This document shows positions 2,755 to 31,456 of a DNA stretch of 64,000 bases, piece after piece. Both the position numbers and the translations under genes were made by a program. Positions within the stretch are counted from its first letter, which is position 1. Every line of letters starts with the position of its first letter. Under the pieces are notes generated by a model that had not been told where the DNA came from, searched no databases, and worked only from the letters and a program-made list of their open reading frames with translations. Source of the DNA: Vampirovibrionales bacterium (lineage in GTDB: Bacteria; Cyanobacteriota; Vampirovibrionia; Vampirovibrionales; JAJTHC01); the NCBI GenBank assembly GCA_044348005.1, contig JBIKTR010000005.1:11991-75990 (forward strand), written 5' to 3'.

Positions 2755-5505
2755 TTATTCGTCGAACTCGCCAAGGGAATTCAAGAGCTTATCGTCGTCT
2801 CCAGTTAACAATGCGACAACTTGAACACGTAAATCATGTAAAAGAAGACGCAAACCTTTTCTCTTTTTATGTTCAGTGGCAGTTGAACCTCTGGAGCCTA
2901 TTCGGCCGGCTTCACCCTGTGAAAGATCCGTGAGGCTTTCCACATTAGTTCGACCTGCATCCTTGAGATTAAAAGGAATAGGCTCGGCAGACGGAATAAC
3001 CTGTGGCGTTACTCTCTGCACAAGGTCGCCCCCCCTTCCTGCTGGTGCTTGTGCTCCTGCTCCTGCTCCTGCTTGTGCTACTGGTGCTGTTCCTGCTCCT
3101 ACTGTTGGTGCTTGTCGTGCTGGTGTTGCTGATGCTGGTGCTGGTGTTGCTGATGTTGGTGCTGGTGCTGGTGCTGGTGTTGCTGATGTTGTTGCTTCTT
3201 TTATTGCTTGTCGTGCTTGAACAACTTTGTCTGAATAATCAGGTTGGGCATCAAGATATTTCTGTGCGTAACGTTGTTCTATACGACTGTTATTATGCTT
3301 TTTGCCGAATTCGGCAAGGGCAAATAGTGCATCTTCATTTGCTGAGTCACGCTTTAAAAGTGACCTAACTGCCTTGTAGGCTTTTACGCATTCTTTCTTA
3401 TTACCAGTTTGTGAAGCCTGATCATATTGGCTTTTCGCCAAGGTGACAATACTTGTTCGTATAGATGTTAAATCAGAAGATAGCCTATGATTATGAATAA
3501 GAGGATCCAACGAGCTGTTAGTCGCTTGCTCAATGGATTGGATTACTCTCACTACTTCAGCTTCCATTTGTTCAGATACTTTAATGGCTTTAGAGTACTC
3601 TTTTTTTGCTACATGTAGCCCAGCTAGTTTTTCTAATACATTTCGTACTTGTGTATTGGGACTATTAACCAATGCTAAACGTTCCTGTAATAAAGCTATA
3701 GCTCTATCAGGGTTTGTTGATTTATATAAGTCGGCCAGATCTTCTAGTAATATAAACCGAAGATTTGTATGATTGTTCTTTGTAGCAATTGCTTGAACAA
3801 GGGTTTCGTAGAAGCCAATTTTATTAGCCCCTCTAAGATCATTTGGAATTAACTTATCTAATTTTCCTTCACCCGAACTCAATGTAATTAAAATATCATT
3901 AATCTGTTTCAGTAAGGGTTCTTTATCCAATTTTGGATTTCTTTGAAGGGCGGACACAGCTACCTTAATTGCACGATAAGGCTCGCCTGCTTGTAAAACT
4001 TTAGCAACCCTTGCAGACGCCCTTGAGGCATCCTGAGGTAAAGCTTGGGCTGATTTGCCTGGTGACAATAGGCCTGCTATTGGCTTTGGTAGTAGGCCTA
4101 CCGTTTCTGGTCGTGCTGGTACTGGTGTTTTAACTCTTGGTGCTACTGGTGATGCTGGTAGTGATGCTGGTGTTGTTGATGCTGGTGGTCCTGTTGGTGC
4201 TTCTGCTCCTGCATTTCCTGCTCCTGCTCCTGATGCTGTTGGTGTTCCTGCTGATGCTTGTGTTCCTGCTGATGTTGTTGGTGTAGGTGCTGGTGTTGCT
4301 GGTGGTTTTGGTGCTGCTGATGCTGATGCTGTTGGTGCTGATGGTTTTGCTGTTGTTGCTGGTGAGTCTAGGTTTATATTTCGACTCAAAGTGTCAGGGA
4401 GTTCTTGCCCTGACACTTGAAGAGTTGGTATTGAATTTGGTCTAAATGGTTCTTGATTTTGCAGAATAACATCCCCATTAAGTGGGATTGGTTCTGCATT
4501 TGCTCGTTGGAACCCTAGATTAACATCTCCTGCTCCTGCTGTTGTTGCTAGTGCTGGTGCTGGTGTTGCTGATGCTGTTGGTGGTGCTTGTACTGGTGCT
4601 ACTGGTGCTACTGTTCCTGCTCCTGCATTTCTTGCTGGTGCTACTGGTTTTGGTGAGTCTAGGTCTATATGTTGACTCAAAGGGTCAGGGAGTTCTTCCC
4701 CTGACACGTGAAGAGTTTCTGTTGCATCTGATTTAATACTAGGAACAAATTCTTTTTGAATTGTCATTGATTCAAATGGTTTATCACTGTTGACTAATTG
4801 CAGATTAACATTCCCCTTAAGTGGGATTGGTTCTGCATTTGCTCGTTGCAACCCTAGATTAACATCTCCTGCTCCTGCTGGGGCTGCTGGTGCTTCTAGA
4901 TTGGAGAAGCTATTACCACCGCCACTACCACCACCACCACCACCACTGTGGCGAGCTGCTGCAGCTGGGCGCGGGGTAGTAACTTGTTTTACAGCTTCGT
5001 CAACAGAAGCAAGAGGAGGCGTCGGCCCATCTACTTCTCTTTTTAAAAAGCCAAAGGTTTTTTCCAAAAACTCTCCGACGTCTTGACGTCTCCACAATAA
5101 TAGGCCCGCCGTGGTAAGGGCAGCGGCGCCTATGGCCACGTTTCTCACCGTATGGTCTTCTTCTTGAGGCGGTGTTGTTTTGGTGGGTGCTGTGACTTTC
5201 GCAGGTGGCACGGTTTTTTGAGCCACAGGGTGGTGTTCGGCAGGTGGCGTCAAAGGACTCGTCGCCGACGAAGACGAAGAGTGAACCTCTGCCCCAGTCT
5301 TCAAATCAACAGGCGAAGGCGTGGGGGCATAGTTTAATGCGGTAGAATCCACAACGGGCGCTGGGCCTGTGTTCCTCGGGTAAAGATCCGCAGAAGATGC
5401 TCCTTGATTCAAAAGCGGTAACGTGGATGCCAAGGGGGGGGGGGGGGCGAACGCAGATTGTGGCGCTTGAGTAAACGAAAAACTATTCATATTGTTCATA
5501 GCCAT
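2755..5505 (-). CDS. Large Pro/Ala/Thr-rich repetitive protein (putative surface or secreted)
   Basis: 916 aa. Low-complexity PAPAPT/ATPAP runs are encoded by (GCTGGT)n-type DNA repeats. Two tandem ~115-aa repeats (GAGDVNLG.QRANAEPIPL...) are present. The C-terminal part looks helical, with a TPR-like composition. Confidence 0.6.
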   Translation of the reverse strand: MAMNNMNSFSFTQAPQSAFAPPPPLASTLPLLNQGASSADLYPRNTGPAPVVDSTALNYAPTPSPVDLKTGAEVHSSSSSATSPLTPPAEHHPVAQKTVPPAKVTAPTKTTPPQEEDHTVRNVAIGAAALTTAGLLLWRRQDVGEFLEKTFGFLKREVDGPTPPLASVDEAVKQVTTPRPAAAARHSGGGGGGSGGGNSFSNLEAPAAPAGAGDVNLGLQRANAEPIPLKGNVNLQLVNSDKPFESMTIQKEFVPSIKSDATETLHVSGEELPDPLSQHIDLDSPKPVAPARNAGAGTVAPVAPVQAPPTASATPAPALATTAGAGDVNLGFQRANAEPIPLNGDVILQNQEPFRPNSIPTLQVSGQELPDTLSRNINLDSPATTAKPSAPTASASAAPKPPATPAPTPTTSAGTQASAGTPTASGAGAGNAGAEAPTGPPASTTPASLPASPVAPRVKTPVPARPETVGLLPKPIAGLLSPGKSAQALPQDASRASARVAKVLQAGEPYRAIKVAVSALQRNPKLDKEPLLKQINDILITLSSGEGKLDKLIPNDLRGANKIGFYETLVQAIATKNNHTNLRFILLEDLADLYKSTNPDRAIALLQERLALVNSPNTQVRNVLEKLAGLHVAKKEYSKAIKVSEQMEAEVVRVIQSIEQATNSSLDPLIHNHRLSSDLTSIRTSIVTLAKSQYDQASQTGNKKECVKAYKAVRSLLKRDSANEDALFALAEFGKKHNNSRIEQRYAQKYLDAQPDYSDKVVQARQAIKEATTSATPAPAPAPTSATPAPASATPARQAPTVGAGTAPVAQAGAGAGAQAPAGRGGDLVQRVTPQVIPSAEPIPFNLKDAGRTNVESLTDLSQGEAGRIGSRGSTATEHKKRKGLRLLLHDLRVQVVALLTGDDDKLLNSLGEFDE
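5434..5447. repeat. Homopolymeric G14 tract (poly-C on coding strand) inside the 5' end of CDS 2755..5505
   Basis: Direct read of 14 consecutive G. On the coding strand it encodes PPPP at about residues 20-24. Confidence 0.9.
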
Positions 5506-8491: not shown

Positions 8492-10102
8492 ATGCCACAA
8501 GCCCCCCTTAATGAGGAACCTGCATCCATGCCTTTTTGGAAAACCAATTGGAAAATTACAAAAATTACGTTTGCGGTATGTACTCTATTATTGAAGGGTT
8601 TTACAACTCTATTTATTTATTCATTCCTATGGAAATTTAAACCAAAACCTCATTATAAAACCTTTTGGGGAAGTGTTGGAAGTTTTGTGCTTACAGCACT
8701 TTTAGTGCTTGTCGTTTTACTTGTTTCTTCTTGGGTTGTAACCTCTGATTTCATAAGCTCTTTAAACTTTTTACACTTGACTACTTCAAATGATGTGAAT
8801 GTCTTTTTAACACTTTTGGTATACGCCTTGACTCTTGCTGTTTTAATACAAACCCTTGACTCTCAACGAGCCTCTGCAGAACGGACGGCTCGTATGGAAA
8901 TGGCGAAGGTATTGACGGAGGCCTTTAGTCATAGTGAAATGTTTGAAGCTATTGAGTATTTCTTGCAGGTGTCACCTTATCTAGTTGATAAAAATGGAAA
9001 AGGTCGTCAAGTTTATATTGAAGAAATCAACGAAAAACCCGAAACTAAAAAATACCGTTACCGAATACTGACCACCTTACACCATGCCGAACGGCTTTAT
9101 AAAACTGAAAAAGCAGATACAGCCTTATTTACGAGTTTAATAACGCCTGACATTGTAGAAGTGGCTTTATGCTTGTACCAACTGGACGACTATATGAAAG
9201 ACGTCGATAAACCTGTTTATGAAATGGTGTATAGGGTGTTTGAAGACATTCGCACCTCTTATCTCGCACCTTATGCGAAAGCCGTTCAAAATAAAAAAGA
9301 AATCAATTCCAAGAAATTACAACACATTCGTCGTATTTTATGTAGTCTTCAAAAGTGGGACAAAGAATGGGGTGATGAAGGCGATATTATCTTAACAGAT
9401 GTTGATTTAATTATGGTTTATTTAATTGATGAAAAGTACAGCTTGGTTGCTTATAAAAATATTTCAAACGAACTCAATCTTCTTGATAAACGATTTGAAG
9501 CCTTAGCTAAGGATTCTAAAAGTACAAAGCCTTTTAAGCGATTTGCGGATCTTTATTTTTTGCGTGCAGATGGGAAATGTGAGCAAAAAGATTATAAAGG
9601 TGCCATTCAGGATTACACTAAATCCATTGAACTAAATCCTAAGAATATCTATACATATAGTAATCGAGGAATTAATCAAGTTAGATTAGGAAACTACCTC
9701 GAAGCTATAAAAGATTTTGATAAAGCGATTATATTAGACCCTAAATTCATTGGAGGGTATTGTAACCGAGGGATTGCCAAATACAACTTAGCACAATATG
9801 AAGAAGCGATAGACGATTATAACCAAGCTATTGAACTCAACCCTGAAGATGACGATGCCTACTACTTGCGAGGGCTTGCCAAAGACGACTTAGAAAAATA
9901 TGAAGAAGCTGTTGTTGATTACACCAAAGCCATTGATCTTGACCCTCAACATGCCGATGCGTACAACAATCGAGCGTTGACTTATCAGCAAATGGCTCAA
10001 CAGGCGAGAGCTAAGGGTAATCACACTGAAGGGAAAGATCTTGAATCTAAAGCCCAAGCCGATTTTGCTCAAGCAAAACGACTTGAATCTGAAAAACAAT
10101 AG
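8492..10102 (+). CDS. TPR-repeat protein with N-terminal transmembrane segments
   Basis: Multiple 34-aa TPR-like units (…AIQDYTKSIELNPKN…, …AIDDYNQAIELNPED…). The gene is AT-rich, and the true start may be at 8528. Confidence 0.6.
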   Translation: MPQAPLNEEPASMPFWKTNWKITKITFAVCTLLLKGFTTLFIYSFLWKFKPKPHYKTFWGSVGSFVLTALLVLVVLLVSSWVVTSDFISSLNFLHLTTSNDVNVFLTLLVYALTLAVLIQTLDSQRASAERTARMEMAKVLTEAFSHSEMFEAIEYFLQVSPYLVDKNGKGRQVYIEEINEKPETKKYRYRILTTLHHAERLYKTEKADTALFTSLITPDIVEVALCLYQLDDYMKDVDKPVYEMVYRVFEDIRTSYLAPYAKAVQNKKEINSKKLQHIRRILCSLQKWDKEWGDEGDIILTDVDLIMVYLIDEKYSLVAYKNISNELNLLDKRFEALAKDSKSTKPFKRFADLYFLRADGKCEQKDYKGAIQDYTKSIELNPKNIYTYSNRGINQVRLGNYLEAIKDFDKAIILDPKFIGGYCNRGIAKYNLAQYEEAIDDYNQAIELNPEDDDAYYLRGLAKDDLEKYEEAVVDYTKAIDLDPQHADAYNNRALTYQQMAQQARAKGNHTEGKDLESKAQADFAQAKRLESEKQ

Positions 10103-11082: not shown

Positions 11083-12153
11083 ATGAATGCCACCACGTCT
11101 TTAAGTCCTGAACACCTCAACACCCTTGAAGTTCAAGCCATTGCTCAACTCAACGCTTGTGCGAATCTCACTGAACTTGAACACGCGAAGGTCGAACTCT
11201 TGGGCCGCAGCGGAAGCCTGACCCTGTTGAAACGAGGCTTGAAAGACGTGCCTGCCGAAGATCGCCCGCAGGTAGGGGCCCTGCTGAATGCCCTGTCTCA
11301 AGCCGTGGAAGTCGTGCATGACGAGATTAAAGCACGCTTGGACGCCGACGCCTTAGCGCTTCAATTACACGCCGAAACGCTGGATGTCACCATGCCGGGG
11401 CGCCATGTGCCAGTAGGCAAGGTGCATCCACTGAGCCAGATTACGGAAGACGTCTGCCGGTTGTTTGAAGGCATGGGCTTTAGCGTGTTAGACGACAACG
11501 CCTGCCCCGAAGTGGAAACCGAGTTCTTCAACTTTGAAGCCCTCAACTTCCCAGCCGATCACCCGGCTCGAGACATGCAAGACACCTACTATACGGAAGT
11601 CGCCAGCCACGTGTTGTTGCGTTCGCAAACCAGCAATGCGCAGATTCGCCATATGAGCCAGCACAAACCGCCGATTCGTGTGATTGCTCCAGGGCGGGTG
11701 TATCGCAACGAAGAAGTGAGCAGTCGCAAGTATGTGTTGTTTCATCAGATTGAAGGGCTTTATGTGGACAAACACGTCACCTTTGCCGATTTAAAAGGCA
11801 CGCTCAATGCGTTTATCACCGAATTGTTTGGTGGTAATGAACGCCCCACGCGTTTTCGCCCCAGCTATTTCCCTTTCACCGAACCGAGTGCGGAAGTCGA
11901 TGTGCAATGCCTTTTCTGCCAAGGCGAAGGGTGCAAGGTCTGCGGTCATAGCGGATGGCTTGAGATCTTGGGGGCTGGCATGGTTCACCCCAACGTGCTA
12001 GAAAACTGCGGGATCGATTCGACGGTGTATCAAGGTTTTGCTTTCGGCATGGGCGTCGAACGATTGGCAATGTTGCGCGATGCCATTGACGACATCCGCA
12101 TTTTTTACACCAACGATCAACGTTTCCTCAAGCAATTCAAACCCAAGTACTAA
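11083..12153 (+). CDS. pheS: Phenylalanine--tRNA ligase alpha subunit
   Basis: Class II aaRS motifs, a FPFTEPS-type motif, and a typical pheS C-terminal core. Note that pheT does not follow. Confidence 0.9.
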   Translation: MNATTSLSPEHLNTLEVQAIAQLNACANLTELEHAKVELLGRSGSLTLLKRGLKDVPAEDRPQVGALLNALSQAVEVVHDEIKARLDADALALQLHAETLDVTMPGRHVPVGKVHPLSQITEDVCRLFEGMGFSVLDDNACPEVETEFFNFEALNFPADHPARDMQDTYYTEVASHVLLRSQTSNAQIRHMSQHKPPIRVIAPGRVYRNEEVSSRKYVLFHQIEGLYVDKHVTFADLKGTLNAFITELFGGNERPTRFRPSYFPFTEPSAEVDVQCLFCQGEGCKVCGHSGWLEILGAGMVHPNVLENCGIDSTVYQGFAFGMGVERLAMLRDAIDDIRIFYTNDQRFLKQFKPKY

Positions 12154-12176
12154 CAGACTGAAGGATTTAAATTTGT

Positions 12177-13742
12177 ATGCAGCTAAGCCTTTTAGAAAAG
12201 TCCACCTTTTCTGCTCAAACCATTTCTGAAGAGTTGGGTGTATGCCTTTCGACGGTGTCAAATTGGTTGAAATCAGGTATGCTTAAGGGAAGTTTAAAGG
12301 CTATCTCTAAAGACTCTTACCTCTACTTCAAAAAAAACTATTTAGGCACTCAAAAACTTAATAAACGTGCTAATAAATTACACATAACTCCTTCATTACT
12401 GGAGGCAAGTTTGCTTACTTTTGAAAATTACGAGCAAAGTCTTCCTGCTTCTTTTCGTAATTTTGAAGGTATTTTTTATACCCCCGCTCATATCATAGAA
12501 AATTTATGTGACCAAATTGAAACATCATTTCCAACATGGAGCGACTTAATTGTTTGTGACCCTTGTTGTGGGACTGGAAATTTCCTAGCAGAAGCCTACA
12601 AGCGCGGGGTTCCGCTTAATCAACTTTATGGATATGATACCGATGAAAAAGCCATTGAGCTAGCAAAAAATCGTTTTTTTGATTTGACAGGGCAATACCC
12701 TCAGCATTTAACTTGTTTGGATTTTATAGAAAATCCACCTTCATATATTCAATTTGATTTAATCATGACGAATCCTCCATGGGGTAAAAAAGCTTACAAA
12801 AATAAAACAACCCAGAACTCTTTGGAACTTGTTTTGTACAATGCATTTCGTTGTATCAAGGAAGAAGGAAAGCTTGCCTTTGTATTACCTGATTCTTTCG
12901 CCACAACTCAAGCTTTTGAAGATCTAAGAATATGGCTTCTAAAACAAAATATATCCTATTTGGCTGATTATGGGAAAGCGTTTTCTGAGATCCAAAATAA
13001 AGCCTATGGGATTATTTTCTCGCCTCAAAACAAACAGGCTGTTTCAAATGATTTTATAACGCTTTCTAATGAAAAAGGACGGCAGGCTTTAGTTAAAACA
13101 GATTTTCAAAATATGCCTAAGCATATTTTTAATTTTTCTGCGACATCGCAGATGTATACGCTTTATAAACATTTACTTAACCATCCTCACACAACTCTAG
13201 TGCAAAAGGCTGATTGGGCTTTAGGCATTGTAACAGGTCATAATGATCGTTATATTAAAAATACACAAGAAGAAGGATATGTTCCTATTGTGAGGGGAAA
13301 AGATCTCAAAAAAGAAGGGTGCCTCGTAAAATGTATGCCAACTGCCTATTTACTAAATGACTTATCTTCCATGCAGCAAGTGGCAAGTCTTAATTTTTAT
13401 CAATCTCCTAAAAAAATAGTGTACAAATTCATTACCAAGAAGCTTTGTTTTTATGTCGATACGTCTAAAAGTTATGTCCTTAATAGTGCTAATATCCTCA
13501 TTCCTGATTGTGAAGTATTAGGAATCAATATGGAACAGTTGGTTTTTTTGTTTAATACGAGCTTATATACATGGTTGCATCAATTTATGTTTGACACTCA
13601 TAAAATTTTAAGATCAGATTTAGAGCAGTTGCCTATTTATAAAGATTATTTTGATACTCATCTTTATTATGATGAAGCTTCACTATACCAATTTCTGAAC
13701 ATAAAGGAAAATCATGATGGAACTTTTAGCATTAAAAAATGA
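12177..13742 (+). CDS. N6-adenine DNA methyltransferase (gamma class) with N-terminal HTH, restriction-modification associated
   Basis: Motif I DPCCGTGNFL, motif IV NPPW (MTNPPWGKK), and an N-terminal HTH (TISEELGVCLSTVSNWLKSG). The gene is strongly AT-rich relative to its flanks. Confidence 0.7.
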   Translation: MQLSLLEKSTFSAQTISEELGVCLSTVSNWLKSGMLKGSLKAISKDSYLYFKKNYLGTQKLNKRANKLHITPSLLEASLLTFENYEQSLPASFRNFEGIFYTPAHIIENLCDQIETSFPTWSDLIVCDPCCGTGNFLAEAYKRGVPLNQLYGYDTDEKAIELAKNRFFDLTGQYPQHLTCLDFIENPPSYIQFDLIMTNPPWGKKAYKNKTTQNSLELVLYNAFRCIKEEGKLAFVLPDSFATTQAFEDLRIWLLKQNISYLADYGKAFSEIQNKAYGIIFSPQNKQAVSNDFITLSNEKGRQALVKTDFQNMPKHIFNFSATSQMYTLYKHLLNHPHTTLVQKADWALGIVTGHNDRYIKNTQEEGYVPIVRGKDLKKEGCLVKCMPTAYLLNDLSSMQQVASLNFYQSPKKIVYKFITKKLCFYVDTSKSYVLNSANILIPDCEVLGINMEQLVFLFNTSLYTWLHQFMFDTHKILRSDLEQLPIYKDYFDTHLYYDEASLYQFLNIKENHDGTFSIKK

Positions 13743-14313
13743 GATAAAAGATTGTTTCAAAGGAACAGCGGAAGAATGGCTACAATTAGAAGAATTACTT
13801 GAGGAAGATTCGAGCGTTTACCCCTTCAATAGTTTTGAATATCTTTTTCAACTTTGTACCTCTCAAAAGAAAATGACCTTTGAAGAATACCTAGAAATTC
13901 GTACTAGTTATATTCAACAGAATCCGAACTTGTGGATTTTTGAGATTGCTTCCCCTACTAAGTTTGGTATCAATTTTGCCCAAACCTACATTAAGGGAAT
14001 GGCTCCTTTTTTAGAAAAGCCATCTAAAAAAATAGACCCAACTTATAATAACGAGTATGATTTTTGGTATAAAGGTCTGCGTATTGAAGTAAAGGCGTCT
14101 CGTGTGGTACATAAAACTCTGGAAACGCCTCTTTATATCAAGGCTCTTGCCTCAAATACGCAAGAACCTTTTTTAATGAATTTTCCACAACTAAAGCCTG
14201 CTTGTTGTGATCTCTTTATTTGGGTTGCTGTTTTTAGAGACACTATTAAAGCATGGATAATGCCATCTTCTGTTGTACAAGATCATGCTTTATATGCAAA
14301 AGGGCAACATTGA
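13714..14313 (+). CDS. Putative small type II restriction endonuclease (PD-(D/E)xK-like) partner of the methyltransferase
   Basis: Overlaps the MTase stop, so it is operonic. The D…EVK pattern (EYDFWYKGLRIEVK) is consistent with a PD-(D/E)xK core. AT-rich. Confidence 0.35.
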   Translation: MMELLALKNEIKDCFKGTAEEWLQLEELLEEDSSVYPFNSFEYLFQLCTSQKKMTFEEYLEIRTSYIQQNPNLWIFEIASPTKFGINFAQTYIKGMAPFLEKPSKKIDPTYNNEYDFWYKGLRIEVKASRVVHKTLETPLYIKALASNTQEPFLMNFPQLKPACCDLFIWVAVFRDTIKAWIMPSSVVQDHALYAKGQH

Positions 14314-14490
14314 AATAATCATGGCAATGAAGGTCAATTACATATTAAGGAAAATAATATCCACTTATTTGATGCGTATCTGTGTGATGCGTCTAATATA
14401 CTTGAAAAGATAGAAAAACATCTTATCTAACACTTATTTAAAGCTACTATTTGATAATAAATACTCGATAACATTAAGAAAGAAATCCCC

Positions 14491-15426
14491 TTGCCCAAGT
14501 TGAACATAAAACGCCTGCCGTCTAAAACGCAAGTCGCCTTAACCATTGCCAAAGTGGTGGAAGGGCATTTCTTTTCGCATCACATGCAAGGCGACTTACA
14601 CGTAAGAGTCGAACGTGTTGAGGTGGCAATGAAATCACTCAACGCCCCTGTGCGCTTGCTTCATTTCTCTGACATCCACTTAGACTGGAACACCCAAGCG
14701 TGGCTCAAGGCGTTGTTGCCTCATATTCACCGCTTGTGCGAAGACTTTAGCATCGATGCCCTAATTTTTACGGGAGATGCCATTGCTTATGGTCAAGCGT
14801 ATTTACCCGCCTTAAGCGACTGGGTGAATGCCTTGCCTGATTTGCCGTGCTATGGGGTGATGGGCAATCACGATTATTATGAAGCCAGTGGGGGCAAAGC
14901 CGTCAAAGCAGCCTTAGAAGCGGGAAGAATGAGGGTTTTGGTGAATGAGTCTTGCCAGCACGCGTTTTCAGGCGATCGGGGGAGCGTGTATTTTCATGGG
15001 GTCGACGATTTCGTCAAAGGACGCCCTGATGTAGCTTCACTGCTTCACACCGCACAAGAACATCCTACCCTAACGCATGTGTTGCTGACGCACAATCCCG
15101 CTCAAATGGCACAGCCTTTTGCGTGGCAGGCGTTTGATGTCGCCTTGGCCGGTCACACCCATGGCGGGCAGTTTCGATGCCCCAATTGGTTTGCTCGCTT
15201 AGTCACCGAATCACCCTATATTCGCAACTGGTACAGCCTTGGGCAAGCCCCTTCAACCCTAGAAGCCTGCCAGCTTTTCGTGCATCACGCCACGGGAACG
15301 GCCAGTATTCCTTGCCCCATTCGACTGCCCTTTATGCCCCGCCGACTGCCGATTTCGGTGCCTCGTTGGGGGTTGATGAGTGAGGTCGTGATTCAAGAAC
15401 TTGTGCCAGTTGTTCCTTCGGCTTAG
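14491..15426 (+). CDS. Calcineurin-like metallophosphoesterase
   Basis: Carries the LHFSDIHLD, TGD and GNHDYY motifs. Confidence 0.65.
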   Translation: MPKLNIKRLPSKTQVALTIAKVVEGHFFSHHMQGDLHVRVERVEVAMKSLNAPVRLLHFSDIHLDWNTQAWLKALLPHIHRLCEDFSIDALIFTGDAIAYGQAYLPALSDWVNALPDLPCYGVMGNHDYYEASGGKAVKAALEAGRMRVLVNESCQHAFSGDRGSVYFHGVDDFVKGRPDVASLLHTAQEHPTLTHVLLTHNPAQMAQPFAWQAFDVALAGHTHGGQFRCPNWFARLVTESPYIRNWYSLGQAPSTLEACQLFVHHATGTASIPCPIRLPFMPRRLPISVPRWGLMSEVVIQELVPVVPSA

Positions 15427-16232
15427 GTGGCACTTTCTTTGCTCGCGTCAGCACTGGTTTCTTCCGCTTCTGTTTGTGCTTTAAGTTCTTCAACAGCTTG
15501 ATCAAAGCTCTGTTCATTCGGTTCCATGAGGTAAAACTTCAAGCGAGTCACCAACAACAACGGACGGTTCAAATGACGAGCAGGATCCGACTTCTTGCCA
15601 GAATCTTGACTCGAAAAATTCGTCATCAAACGTTCGCCTAGGCCTTCATAACTGAGGTACATGCTTTCCACCTGTACCAATTCCTTTTTAAAGGTGGCTA
15701 ACGTTTCCATGAACCGTTTTATTTCGGCGAAGTTGCCTCGTATTTTTAGTTCCATTTTGGTGGAATACAAGGGCAAGTCCTGTTCTTTAATGGCTTGAAA
15801 GCGTTCTAATTCTTCAGGAATTTCGCTAGACTTTTCACCGTCTTCTTTTAGTTTTTCTGCTTTTGTGGCGCTGTCTTGAAGCGCACCGCCATAGGGTTGA
15901 ATGGTGATTAATTGATTGCCTGTTTGCGTGGTTAGGGTAGAAAGCACCCGCATGAAGCCTTTCATGCGAGATTCTAAATCCTTATTTTCAAAGGTAAACG
16001 AAAGAGCTGTCTTATTTTCTTCATACTGGGTTTTGGCTTGTCCCACTTGTTGATTCAATAGCATTTGCTCGGCTTCAAGGACTTTGACTTCCCCTGTCAC
16101 TTCTATAAAAGCAGAAGCACTTCTTTCTACCGCTTTAAATTGTGGTTTTAACACCAGCAAATAGCCCATGGCTAAAATACCGACTGAACACAGCAGACTT
16201 AATAAAATGGCTTCGCGTTGATTGAATTCCAT
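15423..16232 (-). CDS. PilO/GspM-like secretion or pilus assembly protein
   Basis: N-terminal TM segment followed by a coiled coil. It lies immediately downstream of the PilM/PilN-like gene. Confidence 0.4.
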   Translation of the reverse strand: MEFNQREAILLSLLCSVGILAMGYLLVLKPQFKAVERSASAFIEVTGEVKVLEAEQMLLNQQVGQAKTQYEENKTALSFTFENKDLESRMKGFMRVLSTLTTQTGNQLITIQPYGGALQDSATKAEKLKEDGEKSSEIPEELERFQAIKEQDLPLYSTKMELKIRGNFAEIKRFMETLATFKKELVQVESMYLSYEGLGERLMTNFSSQDSGKKSDPARHLNRPLLLVTRLKFYLMEPNEQSFDQAVEELKAQTEAEETSADASKESAT

Positions 16233-16278
16233 GGGGAGGGGGGCATCCTTTATTCAAGGGGAAGGGGCGGAACGAGTA

Positions 16279-17958
16279 TTAAGTCGAAGGTTGAGAAGAG
16301 GGGGTAACGGTTTCTTTTTCGGGGTCTACAGAATCCGACGCTGTTTCAAGCGTCGCGGCTATGCCTTCAGCAGGCGTTGCGTCTTCTTTTTTTGTTTTGG
16401 GCGTGGGGGCGTGCGTGGTGTTGAGCAAGCCGCCTAGTTTGAAGCTATACAGCAAGGGTTTTTCAGGGCTTACTTCTTCTTCACGAATGTAATGCAACAC
16501 AAAATCTCGGCCGTACTGGCGTTGTTCTAACTGATTTGTCAAGTCTAAAATATCTTCATGGCGCAGGGCTTTGCCTGTGATGGAAATATCCTTGTCATAC
16601 GCCACTTCACTAAACCATAAAGAAGAGGGGAGGTGTTGAATGTCATTTAACAAGCCGAGCAACACTTTATTCACACTTTTTGATTTACGAGCAATGGAAA
16701 GAATTTTAAGCGAAAGTTGATTGTAGCGATGGTAGTAATCGACTTGATCTTTTAAGCGGGCGATATTGGCGGTGAGTTGTATCTTATTTTGTTCAGTTTC
16801 AATTTTATTAAGTTGATTAGATTTATGAATCGTTAGAGTGGCAATCCACACAATGCCCACCAACACACAAGAACCAATCACAGAAGGTAAGACCAAAGAC
16901 ATTAAAAGATTATTTTTAAAATCCATATCTTGTAAGGAAGACGCACTAAGGCTTCCAAATGTGCCTAAAGAAAAAGCAGACTTGTTCTTGTTATAGGGGG
17001 AACGTTTGTCTAAAAAATTAAGGCTATAAGGTCGAGGTTCAGGTTCGAAAAAACAACCCCCTACCGTTACAATGCCAATATCCGCTCGATCTACTTGAAA
17101 TGAAGCAGGGACTTCAAAGCTTCTAAAATTTACGCCAATGGCGTGTTGTAAATGTTGCAATAACACATAGTTTAAACGATGCGTAAACCAAAACAACGGT
17201 TCAAAGGGTTTGTTGGCCGCCACTGTTCGGTGAAGTTCATTTACCAAATCTTCTAAAATCACGGGGTTTTCATTGGCATTAGAAAGCACTTGGCCTGAAA
17301 GGGTAATTTCACGAATGTCAATCAAATTAGTACCACGCCAAATTAAGAAACGCAGTCGATCAAACTCATGCATTAAGGAACCCCAGCAAAAATTCGGATC
17401 TTCGGCTTGTTCCGCAATGTTGGAAACAATGCCTGTGGCAATCATGCTACGAACCACTTGAAGGGGTTCCACTTCAATGGAAAGCAAGTGGATTTTAGCG
17501 TCAGCCGCGGCTTTTTGATACCGTAAGAAGGTGTCTTTACGAATGGCACTGTAAATCAATTTTTGGTGAGCCACATTAACGGCATCGTCTATTTCTTCAA
17601 ACGCCACGATGGCTTCGGTGTTGTCAAAGGCTCTAAAACGTTCGGATTCACTAGCCAAGTACATATAGTAATCAGCTCGTTCCATTTTAGGCAGTTCCAT
17701 TAAACGCAACAACGTACAGGGAATGCTTAAATGCACCTTGCGGGTGGGGGCGTCCAGATCCTTCATCATCACGCTCAGTAAATCGCTCAACTGGCTCACT
17801 TCAGCGATGACATCCCCACCGGAAACCAACACCCCCATGGGCATTTTATGCACGACCGATTTAATCACGGTTTGGCGGTTATGGCAATACACCGCCCCTT
17901 CAATTTCAGTGGCGGCAATACTAATGGAAATGCTGTACTTGTCTTTTTTCTTACTCAT
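16279..17958 (-). CDS. PilM-PilN fusion (GspL-like) assembly protein
   Basis: The N-terminal actin-like ATPase domain resembles PilM. A central TM segment is followed by a coiled coil (PilN-like). The start was trimmed to MSKKK (the ORF track extends to 18036 into the divergent promoter). Confidence 0.5.
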   Translation of the reverse strand: MSKKKDKYSISISIAATEIEGAVYCHNRQTVIKSVVHKMPMGVLVSGGDVIAEVSQLSDLLSVMMKDLDAPTRKVHLSIPCTLLRLMELPKMERADYYMYLASESERFRAFDNTEAIVAFEEIDDAVNVAHQKLIYSAIRKDTFLRYQKAAADAKIHLLSIEVEPLQVVRSMIATGIVSNIAEQAEDPNFCWGSLMHEFDRLRFLIWRGTNLIDIREITLSGQVLSNANENPVILEDLVNELHRTVAANKPFEPLFWFTHRLNYVLLQHLQHAIGVNFRSFEVPASFQVDRADIGIVTVGGCFFEPEPRPYSLNFLDKRSPYNKNKSAFSLGTFGSLSASSLQDMDFKNNLLMSLVLPSVIGSCVLVGIVWIATLTIHKSNQLNKIETEQNKIQLTANIARLKDQVDYYHRYNQLSLKILSIARKSKSVNKVLLGLLNDIQHLPSSLWFSEVAYDKDISITGKALRHEDILDLTNQLEQRQYGRDFVLHYIREEEVSPEKPLLYSFKLGGLLNTTHAPTPKTKKEDATPAEGIAATLETASDSVDPEKETVTPSSQPST

Positions 17959-18037
17959 CGAACGTCCATTTTCTCGCCTTTTCGTGTATACTAAACTGGT
18001 AAAAAGCTCACAAAAAGAGTAGAGGACGATCTTCACT

Positions 18038-30787: not shown

Positions 30788-31456
30788 ATGACTAATTTAA
30801 GTGCAAATGGTGGTTCTTTATCGCAGCCAACTAATCCAACGCGTCGGTTTGGTTCCGAAGCTGTCTCGTATGAATTAAGAGCGTTGACTTCTCCAGATAC
30901 TCTTCCAGCAGATGATGCTGAAACGGCAAGACTTTTAGATGATGGTTGGGCTGATGAGCTTCCTTCTCTCGAAAAATATAAGCGATATGGAGGTAAAGAC
31001 GCGGTTCGTTTTGGGAATCATGAAATCGTTGAAAATACTTATGTCGATGTTATACATGATTCCCCAGTGCATCATTTTTTAGATGCCGTCGAGCCACGTA
31101 TCCCTAAAGATTCCTACGTTAAAAATCCTATTAGCTATTTTACAAGTACTTTAATCAGAGCTAAAGAAAATCAACCCTCTTCACATAATGAGTTTATCGC
31201 TCATCCGCTTGTGGCACAAGCTATGCTAAAGTCTCACGGTAATTTGGGTCGTGCAGAATATAGAGCTTTACCAGTTAATGAGGCATTGGCTAAGTATTTC
31301 CCAAATGTTGTTGAATTATTTACGCAAGTAACGGACCCTGAAAGATGTCGCACTATTTTAGGTGACGCCAGAGCATTGATAGATAAAGCAGATCCTTTCC
31401 ATAGAAAGGGTTTATTCTACCCTGTTTTAGAGATTATTCATCAGTCTATTAGGTAA
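30788..31456 (+). CDS. Hypothetical protein
   Basis: 222-aa ORF, AT-rich. Confidence 0.4.
   Translation: MTNLSANGGSLSQPTNPTRRFGSEAVSYELRALTSPDTLPADDAETARLLDDGWADELPSLEKYKRYGGKDAVRFGNHEIVENTYVDVIHDSPVHHFLDAVEPRIPKDSYVKNPISYFTSTLIRAKENQPSSHNEFIAHPLVAQAMLKSHGNLGRAEYRALPVNEALAKYFPNVVELFTQVTDPERCRTILGDARALIDKADPFHRKGLFYPVLEIIHQSIR

What the first reader, a model, noticed from the sequence alone, without database searches (positions are those of the whole stretch)
12177..14460. AT-rich restriction-modification island inserted between pheS and a metallophosphoesterase gene; methyltransferase has N-terminal HTH; small downstream ORF looks like a PD-(D/E)xK nuclease
GC content drops sharply (to roughly 33%) for about 2.3 kb immediately after the pheS stop. 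The 521-aa protein has the gamma-class N6A motifs (DPCCGTGNF and NPPW) and an N-terminal HTH, suggesting autoregulation like C-protein fusions. The overlapping 199-aa ORF carries a D…EVK pattern compatible with a minimal restriction endonuclease. pheT, the usual partner of pheS, is absent downstream.
Basis: partly seen in the sequence, partly recalled or inferred. Interest (0 to 1): 0.5.

Follow-up and report, generated by a model that had tools for sequence, protein, structure and literature searches.

The report
Restriction-modification island with a dead nuclease gene
This is an ordinary two-gene restriction-modification cassette acquired by horizontal transfer, in which the DNA-cutting gene has been knocked out by a premature stop codon while the protective methylase gene stays intact.

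Summary
A 2.3-kb stretch at 34% GC (12154-14486) lies between pheS and a metallophosphoesterase gene, both 53% GC. A near-identical relative has the empty site, so it is an insertion.

It carries a gamma-class N6-adenine methylase (521 aa). Overlapping it by 29 nt is a homolog of a widespread PD-(D/E)xK Type II restriction endonuclease family. In 77 of 80 other genomes the same M-then-R pair is found.

The 199-aa ORF is not a minimal nuclease. It is a 238-aa endonuclease gene cut short by an in-frame TGA at 14311-14313 (Arg200, CGA to TGA). That Arg is invariant in 57 homologs. The frame continues for 38 conserved codons to a TAA at 14428-14430.

The same TGA occurs in three independent assemblies, and a sister lineage keeps CGA. 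A second hit, Q158P, also falls on an invariant residue. The methylase is intact and under purifying selection (dN/dS about 0.10).

The locus is therefore most likely a restriction-modification system decaying into an orphan methylase. About 18 of the 80 related loci show the same fate. The recognition sequence could not be determined. The missing pheT is a lineage trait and has nothing to do with the island.

The parts
11083..12153 (+). pheS (phenylalanine-tRNA ligase alpha subunit), the left flank of the island; host gene at GC 0.53
   Evidence: TIGR00468 pheS 3.2e-97 and Pfam tRNA-synt_2d 3e-95. Best named homologs are Vampirovibrionales/Melainabacteria.
12154..12176 (+). Left junction: 23-nt spacer between the pheS stop and the methylase ATG, containing a GAAGGA ribosome-binding-like site. 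No promoter or terminator was predicted, so co-transcription with pheS is inferred.
   Evidence: Sequence, junction alignment with the empty site L094, promoter/terminator scan.
12177..13742 (+). M gene: 521-aa gamma-class N6-adenine DNA methyltransferase, intact. It has an N-terminal HTH (about residues 4-50), motif I DPCCGTGNF (nt 12558-12584), motif IV NPPW (nt 12771-12782) and a TaqI_C target-recognition domain (residues 370-487, nt 13284-13637).
   Evidence: Pfam N6_Mtase, Eco57I and TaqI_C. PADLOC MTase_II PDLC03356 2.5e-112 over the full length. All 55 family-invariant residues are kept. dN/dS is 0.096 against the sister lineage and 0.10 against a 98%-identical strain.
13714..14430 (+). 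R gene, ancestral full-length frame of 238 codons: a PD-(D/E)xK Type II restriction endonuclease homolog, here a pseudogene. The catalytic candidates are D116 (14059-14061), E125 (14086-14088) and K127 (14092-14094).
14311..14313 (+). Premature stop: TGA at codon 200, where 57 of 57 intact homologs have Arg and the sister lineage has CGA. This is a single C-to-T transition at 14311.
   Evidence: The same TGA is present in L085/L088, L087 and L086 from independent assemblies.
14185..14187 (+). Second damaging change in R: codon 158 is CCA (Pro) where Gln is invariant in 57 homologs and CAA is found in the sister lineage.
14314..14430 (+). Orphaned 3' tail of R (codons 201-238 plus TAA). It still encodes the conserved N-x-G-N-E-G-Q-L-H block, which holds 7 invariant residues.
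   Evidence: One strain (L086) carries G207C in this tail.
14431..14486 (+). Right junction: AT-rich spacer (GC 0.27) that is absent from the empty site. No target-site duplication, terminal repeat or mobility gene was found.
   Evidence: Junction alignment, repeat search.
14491..15426 (+). Metallophosphoesterase gene, the right flank. The start is ambiguous: TTG at 14491 gives 311 aa, while gene callers on identical contigs use ATG at 14584 (280 aa).
   Evidence: Pfam Metallophos 9.8e-12; gene calls in L085/L087.

Best explanation
A horizontally acquired Type II restriction-modification cassette sits between pheS and a metallophosphoesterase gene. It is an M-then-R operon with overlapping genes.

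M is a gamma-class N6-adenine methylase with an N-terminal HTH. It is intact and would methylate one adenine-containing target sequence, which remains unknown, throughout the chromosome.

R was a 238-aa PD-(D/E)xK endonuclease that cut the same sequence when unmethylated. In this lineage R has been inactivated by a CGA-to-TGA nonsense mutation at invariant Arg200, plus Q158P at another invariant residue. The locus therefore now behaves as an orphan methylase beside an endonuclease pseudogene.

This order of loss is the expected one. Losing R is harmless, whereas losing M first while R is active would be lethal.

Shown here: the gene identities, the insertion, the mutation and its reproducibility, the conservation of M, and recurrent R decay in the family. 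Inferred: loss of cleavage activity, continued methylation, and co-transcription with pheS.
For: - Insertion: L094 belongs to the same species as the island-bearing L001/L002 (flanks 97-99.7% identical). It has pheS, 74 nt, then the metallophosphoesterase gene, with no M or R.
- Identity of M: PADLOC MTase_II 2.5e-112, Pfam N6_Mtase/Eco57I/TaqI_C, motifs I and IV in gamma order.
- Linkage: 77 of 80 genome loci with an R homolog have the M homolog directly upstream on the same strand, overlapping it.
- Nonsense mutation: the frame continues for 38 codons after the TGA. The profile score rises from 235 to 275 bits, and all homologs have Arg at codon 200. The sister lineage has CGA with identical neighbouring codons.
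- Not an assembly error: the same TGA is found in SRR27425987, SRR27428159 and JGI 3300042340.
- TGA is a normal stop in this genome. It ends 4 of 38 long ORFs, including M.
- Further decay: Q158P, and G207C in one strain.
- M is constrained: dN/dS is 0.096 and 0.10.
- Same fate elsewhere: R is disrupted in about 18 of the 80 loci, M in only 4. This agrees with Seshasayee et al. 2012 (PMC3424554).
Against: - No activity data exist. The 199-aa product keeps the D/E-x-K core and could retain some function.
- The nonsense mutation is recent. The tail is otherwise identical to the sister lineage, so there is little independent evidence of relaxed selection beyond Q158P and one G207C polymorphism.
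- No promoter was found for M, so its expression is assumed.
- The low dN/dS of M was measured against lineages whose R is intact or of unknown state. It does not prove selection on M after R was lost.
- The recognition sequence is unknown.
Confidence: 0.8

Rival explanations
1. The system is a fully active restriction-modification system, and the 199-aa ORF is a functional, unusually small endonuclease.
For: The truncated product retains the invariant D116, E125 and K127 and most of the core beta-sheet of the model. dN/dS of codons 1-199 against the sister lineage is 0.195, so it is not neutral.
Against: - The truncation removes R200 and 7 further invariant residues, one predicted strand (207-211) and two helices.
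- All 57 intact homologs are 236-247 aa.
- The downstream frame still encodes the conserved tail, so the stop is secondary.
- Q158P hits another invariant site.
- The dN/dS mostly reflects history before the recent mutation.
Confidence: 0.08
2. The TGA is not a real stop. It would be either a sequencing or assembly artefact, or a decoded or read-through codon, so a full-length endonuclease is still made.
For: The 38 codons after the TGA are perfectly conserved against the sister lineage. Positions 14280-14453 are identical except for the C-to-T change. UGA is generally the leakiest stop codon (general knowledge).
Against: - The same TGA is present in three independent assemblies, one of which differs elsewhere in the gene.
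- TGA terminates 4 of 38 long ORFs here, including M itself.
- Near-cognate read-through would insert Trp at an invariant Arg.
- No RNA structure or Rfam element lies downstream.
- The conserved tail fits a recent recombination tract covering 13941-14560.
Confidence: 0.04
3. The whole island is a dead relic. M is also non-functional or not expressed, and simply has not yet accumulated visible damage.
For: No promoter-like site lies upstream of M, and there is only a 23-nt spacer. The HTH match in the window protein is weak. Fully degraded cassettes exist in the family (L075, L081).
Against: M keeps all 55 family-invariant residues. It has dN/dS of about 0.10 at both deep (dS 0.64) and shallow (dS 0.075) divergence. 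Its position 23 nt after an essential gene, with no terminator predicted, makes read-through transcription likely.
Confidence: 0.08

Closest known systems
Classical Type IIP restriction-modification systems with a gamma-class m6A methylase carrying a TaqI_C-type recognition domain (the TaqI, PstI, PaeR7I/XhoI and HincII group; named from general knowledge)
   Same: Separate M and R genes in one operon. M has motif I, then NPPW, then a C-terminal TaqI_C domain. R is a small PD-(D/E)xK protein. The pair is tightly linked across phyla.
   Different: R matches no Pfam or NCBIfam endonuclease family at all, so it is not a sequence-level member of any curated REase family in those libraries. M has no significant sequence match to any solved Type II methylase; its best PDB match is a Type I StySJI M subunit at 1.5e-7. 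The recognition site is unknown. In this window R carries a premature stop.
REBASE-derived PADLOC families PDLC03356 (MTase_II) and PDLC03414 (REase_II)
   Same: Full-length matches: M 2.5e-112 over profile 6-533 of 545, and the read-through R 1.8e-82 over profile 7-232 of 244.
   Different: The window R is truncated at profile position 204. The PADLOC models carry no enzyme name or specificity.
Orphan (solitary) methyltransferases that arise by decay of the partner endonuclease (Seshasayee et al. 2012, PMC3424554)
   Same: An intact, constrained M sits next to a damaged R. The same asymmetry is seen across the family, with R broken in about 18 loci and M in 4.
   Different: This is a very early stage. 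There is one nonsense and one missense change, and the rest of R is still recognisable at 92% identity to an intact ortholog.
Methylases that autoregulate through an N-terminal HTH (M.SsoII, M.Ecl18kI, M.EcoRII, M.ScrFIA; reviewed in PMC3874152)
   Same: An N-terminal HTH is fused to the methylase. 34 of 44 family members hit HTH_17 and 26 of 44 hit MerR.
   Different: From my own knowledge, not checked here, those examples are C5-cytosine methylases, whereas this one is an N6-adenine gamma-class enzyme. No operator or own promoter was found, so the regulatory role is untested.
NhoI (PDB 8q5n, 8rpx) and the homing endonuclease I-Ssp6803I (PDB 2ost)
   Different: Identity is only 11-19%. NhoI was crystallised with methylated DNA and is not paired with a methylase in this way. 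The protein here has an extra roughly 100-residue N-terminal helical domain.

Membership tests
Type II restriction-modification system | A DNA methyltransferase gene with AdoMet-binding and catalytic motifs | tested here: met
   Pfam N6_Mtase 3.1e-13, PADLOC MTase_II 2.5e-112, and the DPCCGTGNF and NPPW motifs.
Type II restriction-modification system | An adjacent separate endonuclease gene, linked to the methylase across genomes | tested here: met
   PADLOC REase_II 1.8e-70. M lies directly upstream of R in 77 of 80 loci. Two of the exceptions are at contig ends and one is a 48-residue fragment.
Type II restriction-modification system | Intact endonuclease reading frame | tested here: not met
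   In-frame TGA at codon 200 of 238, reproduced in three assemblies. Q158P falls on an invariant residue.
Type II restriction-modification system | Sequence-specific cleavage blocked by the cognate methylation | not testable with these tools
   This needs biochemistry or methylome data. Palindrome-avoidance analysis was inconclusive.
Gamma-class N6-adenine DNA methyltransferase | Order of motif I (FxGxG-like), then motif IV (NPPW/Y), then a C-terminal target-recognition domain | tested here: met
   Motif I at residues 128-136, NPPW at 199-202, TaqI_C at 370-487.
Gamma-class N6-adenine DNA methyltransferase | Product is N6-methyladenine in a defined sequence | not testable with these tools
   No methylome data are available.
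PD-(D/E)xK nuclease superfamily | Core alpha-beta fold shared with solved members | tested here: met
   [not shown]
PD-(D/E)xK nuclease superfamily | Conserved acidic residue plus (D/E)-x-K on adjacent strands | tested here: met
   D116, E125 and K127 are invariant in 57 homologs and lie on the predicted hairpin 117-119/122-130.
XhoI/PaeR7I-type endonucleases (considered because of similar gene sizes and M-then-R order, from memory) | Match to the Pfam XhoI endonuclease family. That this family exists in Pfam is my recollection. | tested here: not met
   No Pfam family matches the R protein at E up to 0.1.
HTH-methylase autoregulators (M.SsoII type) | N-terminal HTH domain on the methylase | tested here: met
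   34 of 44 family members hit HTH_17 (best 9.6e-8). The window protein gives only HTH_23 at E 0.0095, but it keeps the invariant N29-W30 of the recognition helix.
HTH-methylase autoregulators (M.SsoII type) | Operator overlapping the methylase's own promoter | tested here: inconclusive
   No shared motif was visible in 68 upstream regions by eye. In the window there is only a 23-nt spacer and no promoter-like site. No formal motif search was run.
Orphan methyltransferase derived from restriction-modification decay | Methylase intact and under purifying selection while the neighbouring endonuclease is degraded | tested here: met
   M dN/dS is 0.096 and 0.10. R carries a nonsense change and Q158P.

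The most novel reading that the evidence does not exclude
The premature stop could be a maintained state rather than simple decay. The truncated 199-aa protein keeps the catalytic D/E-x-K core. It, or rare UGA read-through product, might provide an attenuated or altered activity, for example low-dose restriction, nicking, or a dominant-negative subunit that blocks re-invasion by the intact system. The unusually conserved 13941-14560 tract would then reflect selection rather than recombination.
Probability: 0.04. Interest if true: 0.5.

Novelty: new member of a known kind. Interest (0 to 1): 0.2.

Why it matters
It matters little beyond correct annotation. The locus should be annotated as an orphan or orphan-in-the-making m6A methylase plus an endonuclease pseudogene, not as an active defence system.

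It is a clean natural snapshot of the restriction-modification life cycle in an uncultured Vampirovibrionia lineage. The same locus is seen with an empty site, with an intact cassette, and with a freshly inactivated endonuclease.

The endonuclease family itself is large (1,724 hits) and highly conserved, yet absent from Pfam and NCBIfam. A curated model and a determined specificity would be useful.

Tried and rejected
- Recognition-site inference from palindrome avoidance. I tried it in the window and in 789 kb of host DNA around 80 homologous cassettes, and by contrasting loci with intact and degraded R. Only generic avoidance appeared (GAGCTC, CTGCAG, CCGCGG, ATTAAT). The one contrast (GGGCCC, 0.34 against 1.09) has no adenine and cannot be the target.
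- XhoI/PaeR7I identity, suggested by similar gene sizes from memory. Rejected because R has no Pfam hit.
- Named homologs. All named R hits are 'hypothetical protein'. There is no homolog in the plasmid or phage collections and no solved structure by sequence. No paper contains the conserved peptide motifs.
- Mobility signatures. No target-site duplication, terminal repeats, integrase or transposase were found. A TTTAAA near both borders is not shared by the sister lineage and looks like chance in AT-rich DNA.
- A conserved operator for the HTH. None was seen in 68 upstream regions.
- An RNA element to explain the conserved 3' tract. There was no Rfam hit, and folding z-scores were +1.0 and +1.6.
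- The afdb50 fold library was unavailable.
- A 98%-identical strain (L083/L084) could not be checked for the TGA, because its contigs end before codon 200.

Full report
**1. Observation**

GC is 0.34 and 0.338 for the two reading frames. The flanking pheS is at 0.532, the downstream metallophosphoesterase gene at 0.527, and the whole window at 0.466. The 521-aa gene has the lowest GC of all 38 long ORFs in the window. The drop is real, although a TPR gene at 8492-10102 is also AT-rich at 0.368.

**2. The large protein**

- Pfam gives N6_Mtase (3.1e-13), Eco57I (9.9e-10) and the TaqI_C specificity domain (1.1e-13, residues 370-487).
- The PADLOC Type II methylase model PDLC03356 matches end to end at 2.5e-112.
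- Motif I (DPCCGTGNF, residues 128-136) precedes NPPW (199-202), and the recognition domain is C-terminal. This is the gamma arrangement. The core residues of both motifs are invariant or nearly so in an alignment of 44 homologs.
- The N-terminal HTH is weak in this protein (HTH_23, E 0.0095). It is a family feature, however: 34 of 44 homologs hit HTH_17 and 26 hit MerR. The window protein keeps the invariant N29-W30.

**3. The small ORF is a truncated gene**

The 199-aa product matches the PADLOC Type II endonuclease model PDLC03414 at 1.8e-70, but only over profile positions 7-204 of 244. The ORF ends at TGA 14311-14313, and the same frame runs on for 38 sense codons to TAA at 14428-14430. 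Read through, the match rises from 235 to 275 bits and extends colinearly to profile position 232.

A search of 5.8 billion proteins found 1,724 homologs, almost all 236-247 aa. One of them (P0001) is a 92%-identical 238-aa protein. In alignments of 13 and 57 sequences every homolog has Arg at codon 200, inside the block K-G-Q-H-R-G-N-x-G-N-E-G-Q-L-H.

The contigs encoding P0001 (L001, L002) have the same pheS-M-R-metallophosphoesterase order. At codon 200 they carry CGA, with identical neighbouring codons. The window therefore carries a single C-to-T nonsense mutation at 14311.

**4. The stop is real**

The exact 199-aa product and the TGA are found in Logan assemblies of SRR27425987 and SRR27428159. 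They are also found in JGI 3300042340, whose copy differs by one other base.

TGA is used as a stop here. It ends 4 of 38 long ORFs, including the methylase gene.

Of the 54 residues invariant in 57 intact homologs, the window protein deviates at exactly two: R200* and Q158P. The sister lineage keeps both. The JGI strain adds G207C, at an invariant residue downstream of the stop. This is what relaxed selection on the tail would produce, although it is a single case.

**5. Fold**

An AlphaFold2 model of the intact ortholog (57-sequence alignment, pLDDT 81.5) has an N-terminal six-helix domain and a C-terminal alpha/beta domain.

- It then gives D212, RecU, Hjc, EcoRV, PvuII, NaeI, ThaI, DpnI and HhaI.
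- Foldseek agrees, with NhoI at E about 1e-4 and probability 1.00.
- D116 and E125-x-K127 are invariant and sit on the predicted hairpin 117-119/122-130.

The truncation removes a predicted strand (207-211), two helices and eight invariant residues.

**6. It is a restriction-modification pair**

In 80 loci from GTDB representative genomes that encode an R homolog, 77 have the M homolog immediately upstream on the same strand and overlapping it. Two exceptions lie at contig ends and one is a 48-residue fragment. The hosts span many phyla, including Bacteroidota, Proteobacteria, Verrucomicrobiota, Spirochaetes, Saccharibacteria and Melainabacteria. This spread is typical of horizontally mobile restriction-modification genes. 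No homolog was found in the plasmid or phage collections.

**7. It is an insertion**

L094 (JGI 3300037189) is 97-99.7% identical to the island-bearing L001/L002 in the flanking genes. It has pheS followed after 74 nt by the metallophosphoesterase gene, with no M or R. This defines the borders at about 12154 and 14486. No target-site duplication, terminal repeat or mobility gene is present.

More distant relatives (L090, L093) have other genes after pheS, and never pheT. The missing pheT is therefore a lineage trait. pheS homologs place the host in Vampirovibrionia/Melainabacteria.

**8. Evolutionary state**

Against the sister lineage, dS is 0.64 for both pheS and M, so the island is as old as the split. 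M has dN/dS of 0.096, and 0.10 against a 98%-identical strain. M also keeps all 55 family-invariant residues.

R is heterogeneous. Codons 1-76 have dS 0.62, codons 77-199 have dS 0.12, and codons 201-238 have no difference at all. Mismatch density is 13.6% up to 13940, 4.4% in 13941-14560 and 20% beyond. No RNA family or structure explains this. A recent homologous-recombination tract between the two lineages is the simplest reading. It implies that the nonsense mutation is young.

**9. Recurrent decay in the family**

Among the 80 loci, 59 have an intact-looking R. About 18 have in-frame stops, frameshifts, N-terminal deletions, an insertion or truncations. M is disrupted in only 4. This asymmetry is what post-segregational killing predicts, because R can be lost safely and M cannot. 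It also matches the proposal that many orphan methylases are degradation products of restriction-modification systems (PMC3424554).

**10. Mechanism**

Originally M methylated an adenine in a specific, probably palindromic, site. R, probably as a homodimer, cut unmethylated copies. The overlap of the genes suggests translational coupling.

The HTH may repress M's own promoter, as described for other HTH-methylases (PMC3874152). Here this is only an analogy. No operator was found, and in this genome M starts 23 nt after pheS with no predicted promoter or terminator. That arrangement suggests read-through transcription from pheS.

In this lineage restriction is most likely lost and methylation retained. 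The recognition sequence could not be inferred.

**11. Verdict**

This is an ordinary Type II restriction-modification island caught just after inactivation of its endonuclease. The key correction is that the '199-aa minimal nuclease' is a nonsense-truncated 238-aa gene. Novelty is that of a new member of a known kind, and interest is low.

Noticed in passing
window 1-64000: CCGG is strongly under-represented: 26 observed against 107 expected from a Markov model (O/E 0.24). GATATC (0 against 6.5) and TACGTA (0 against 3.8) are absent. This hints at other, possibly past, restriction systems in this genome. None was looked for.
   Followed up: no
window 13941-14560, compared with L001: This tract covers the 3' two-thirds of R, the downstream spacer and the start of the next gene. 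It is only 4.4% diverged from the sister lineage, against 13.6% and 20% on either side. Positions 14280-14453 are identical except for the nonsense change. No RNA element was found, so recent inter-lineage recombination is the likeliest cause, but this is unproven.
   Followed up: partly
80 genome loci L003-L082: The endonuclease family is more conserved than its methylase partner in the same loci: 48-57% against 33-41% identity to the window proteins. This is the reverse of the usual pattern for restriction-modification pairs.
   Followed up: no
[not shown]
   Followed up: no
window 8492-10102; also 30788-31456 and 2755-5505: Other compositionally odd genes are present. A TPR-repeat protein two genes upstream of pheS has GC 0.368 and GC3 0.305. 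Two further ORFs have GC3 of about 0.26. These may be other horizontally acquired segments.
   Followed up: no
window 14487-14586: The metallophosphoesterase start is ambiguous. TTG at 14491 lies in a stretch conserved in all three lineages, including the empty site. The ATG used in the sister lineage (equivalent to 14533) is lost here. Gene callers pick ATG at 14584.
   Followed up: partly
L064 (4635-4796 and 6001-6507); L075; L081: In a Porifericomitaceae genome the R homolog is split by about 1.2 kb of inserted DNA. In two other genomes (Desulfobacterales, Myxococcota) both M and R are riddled with stops and frameshifts. These represent later stages of the same decay.
   Followed up: partly
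window 15423-18036 (- strand): Two conserved neighbouring genes (269 aa and 585 aa) have no Pfam match. They are syntenic in all related contigs (L001, L085, L087, L094).
   Followed up: no
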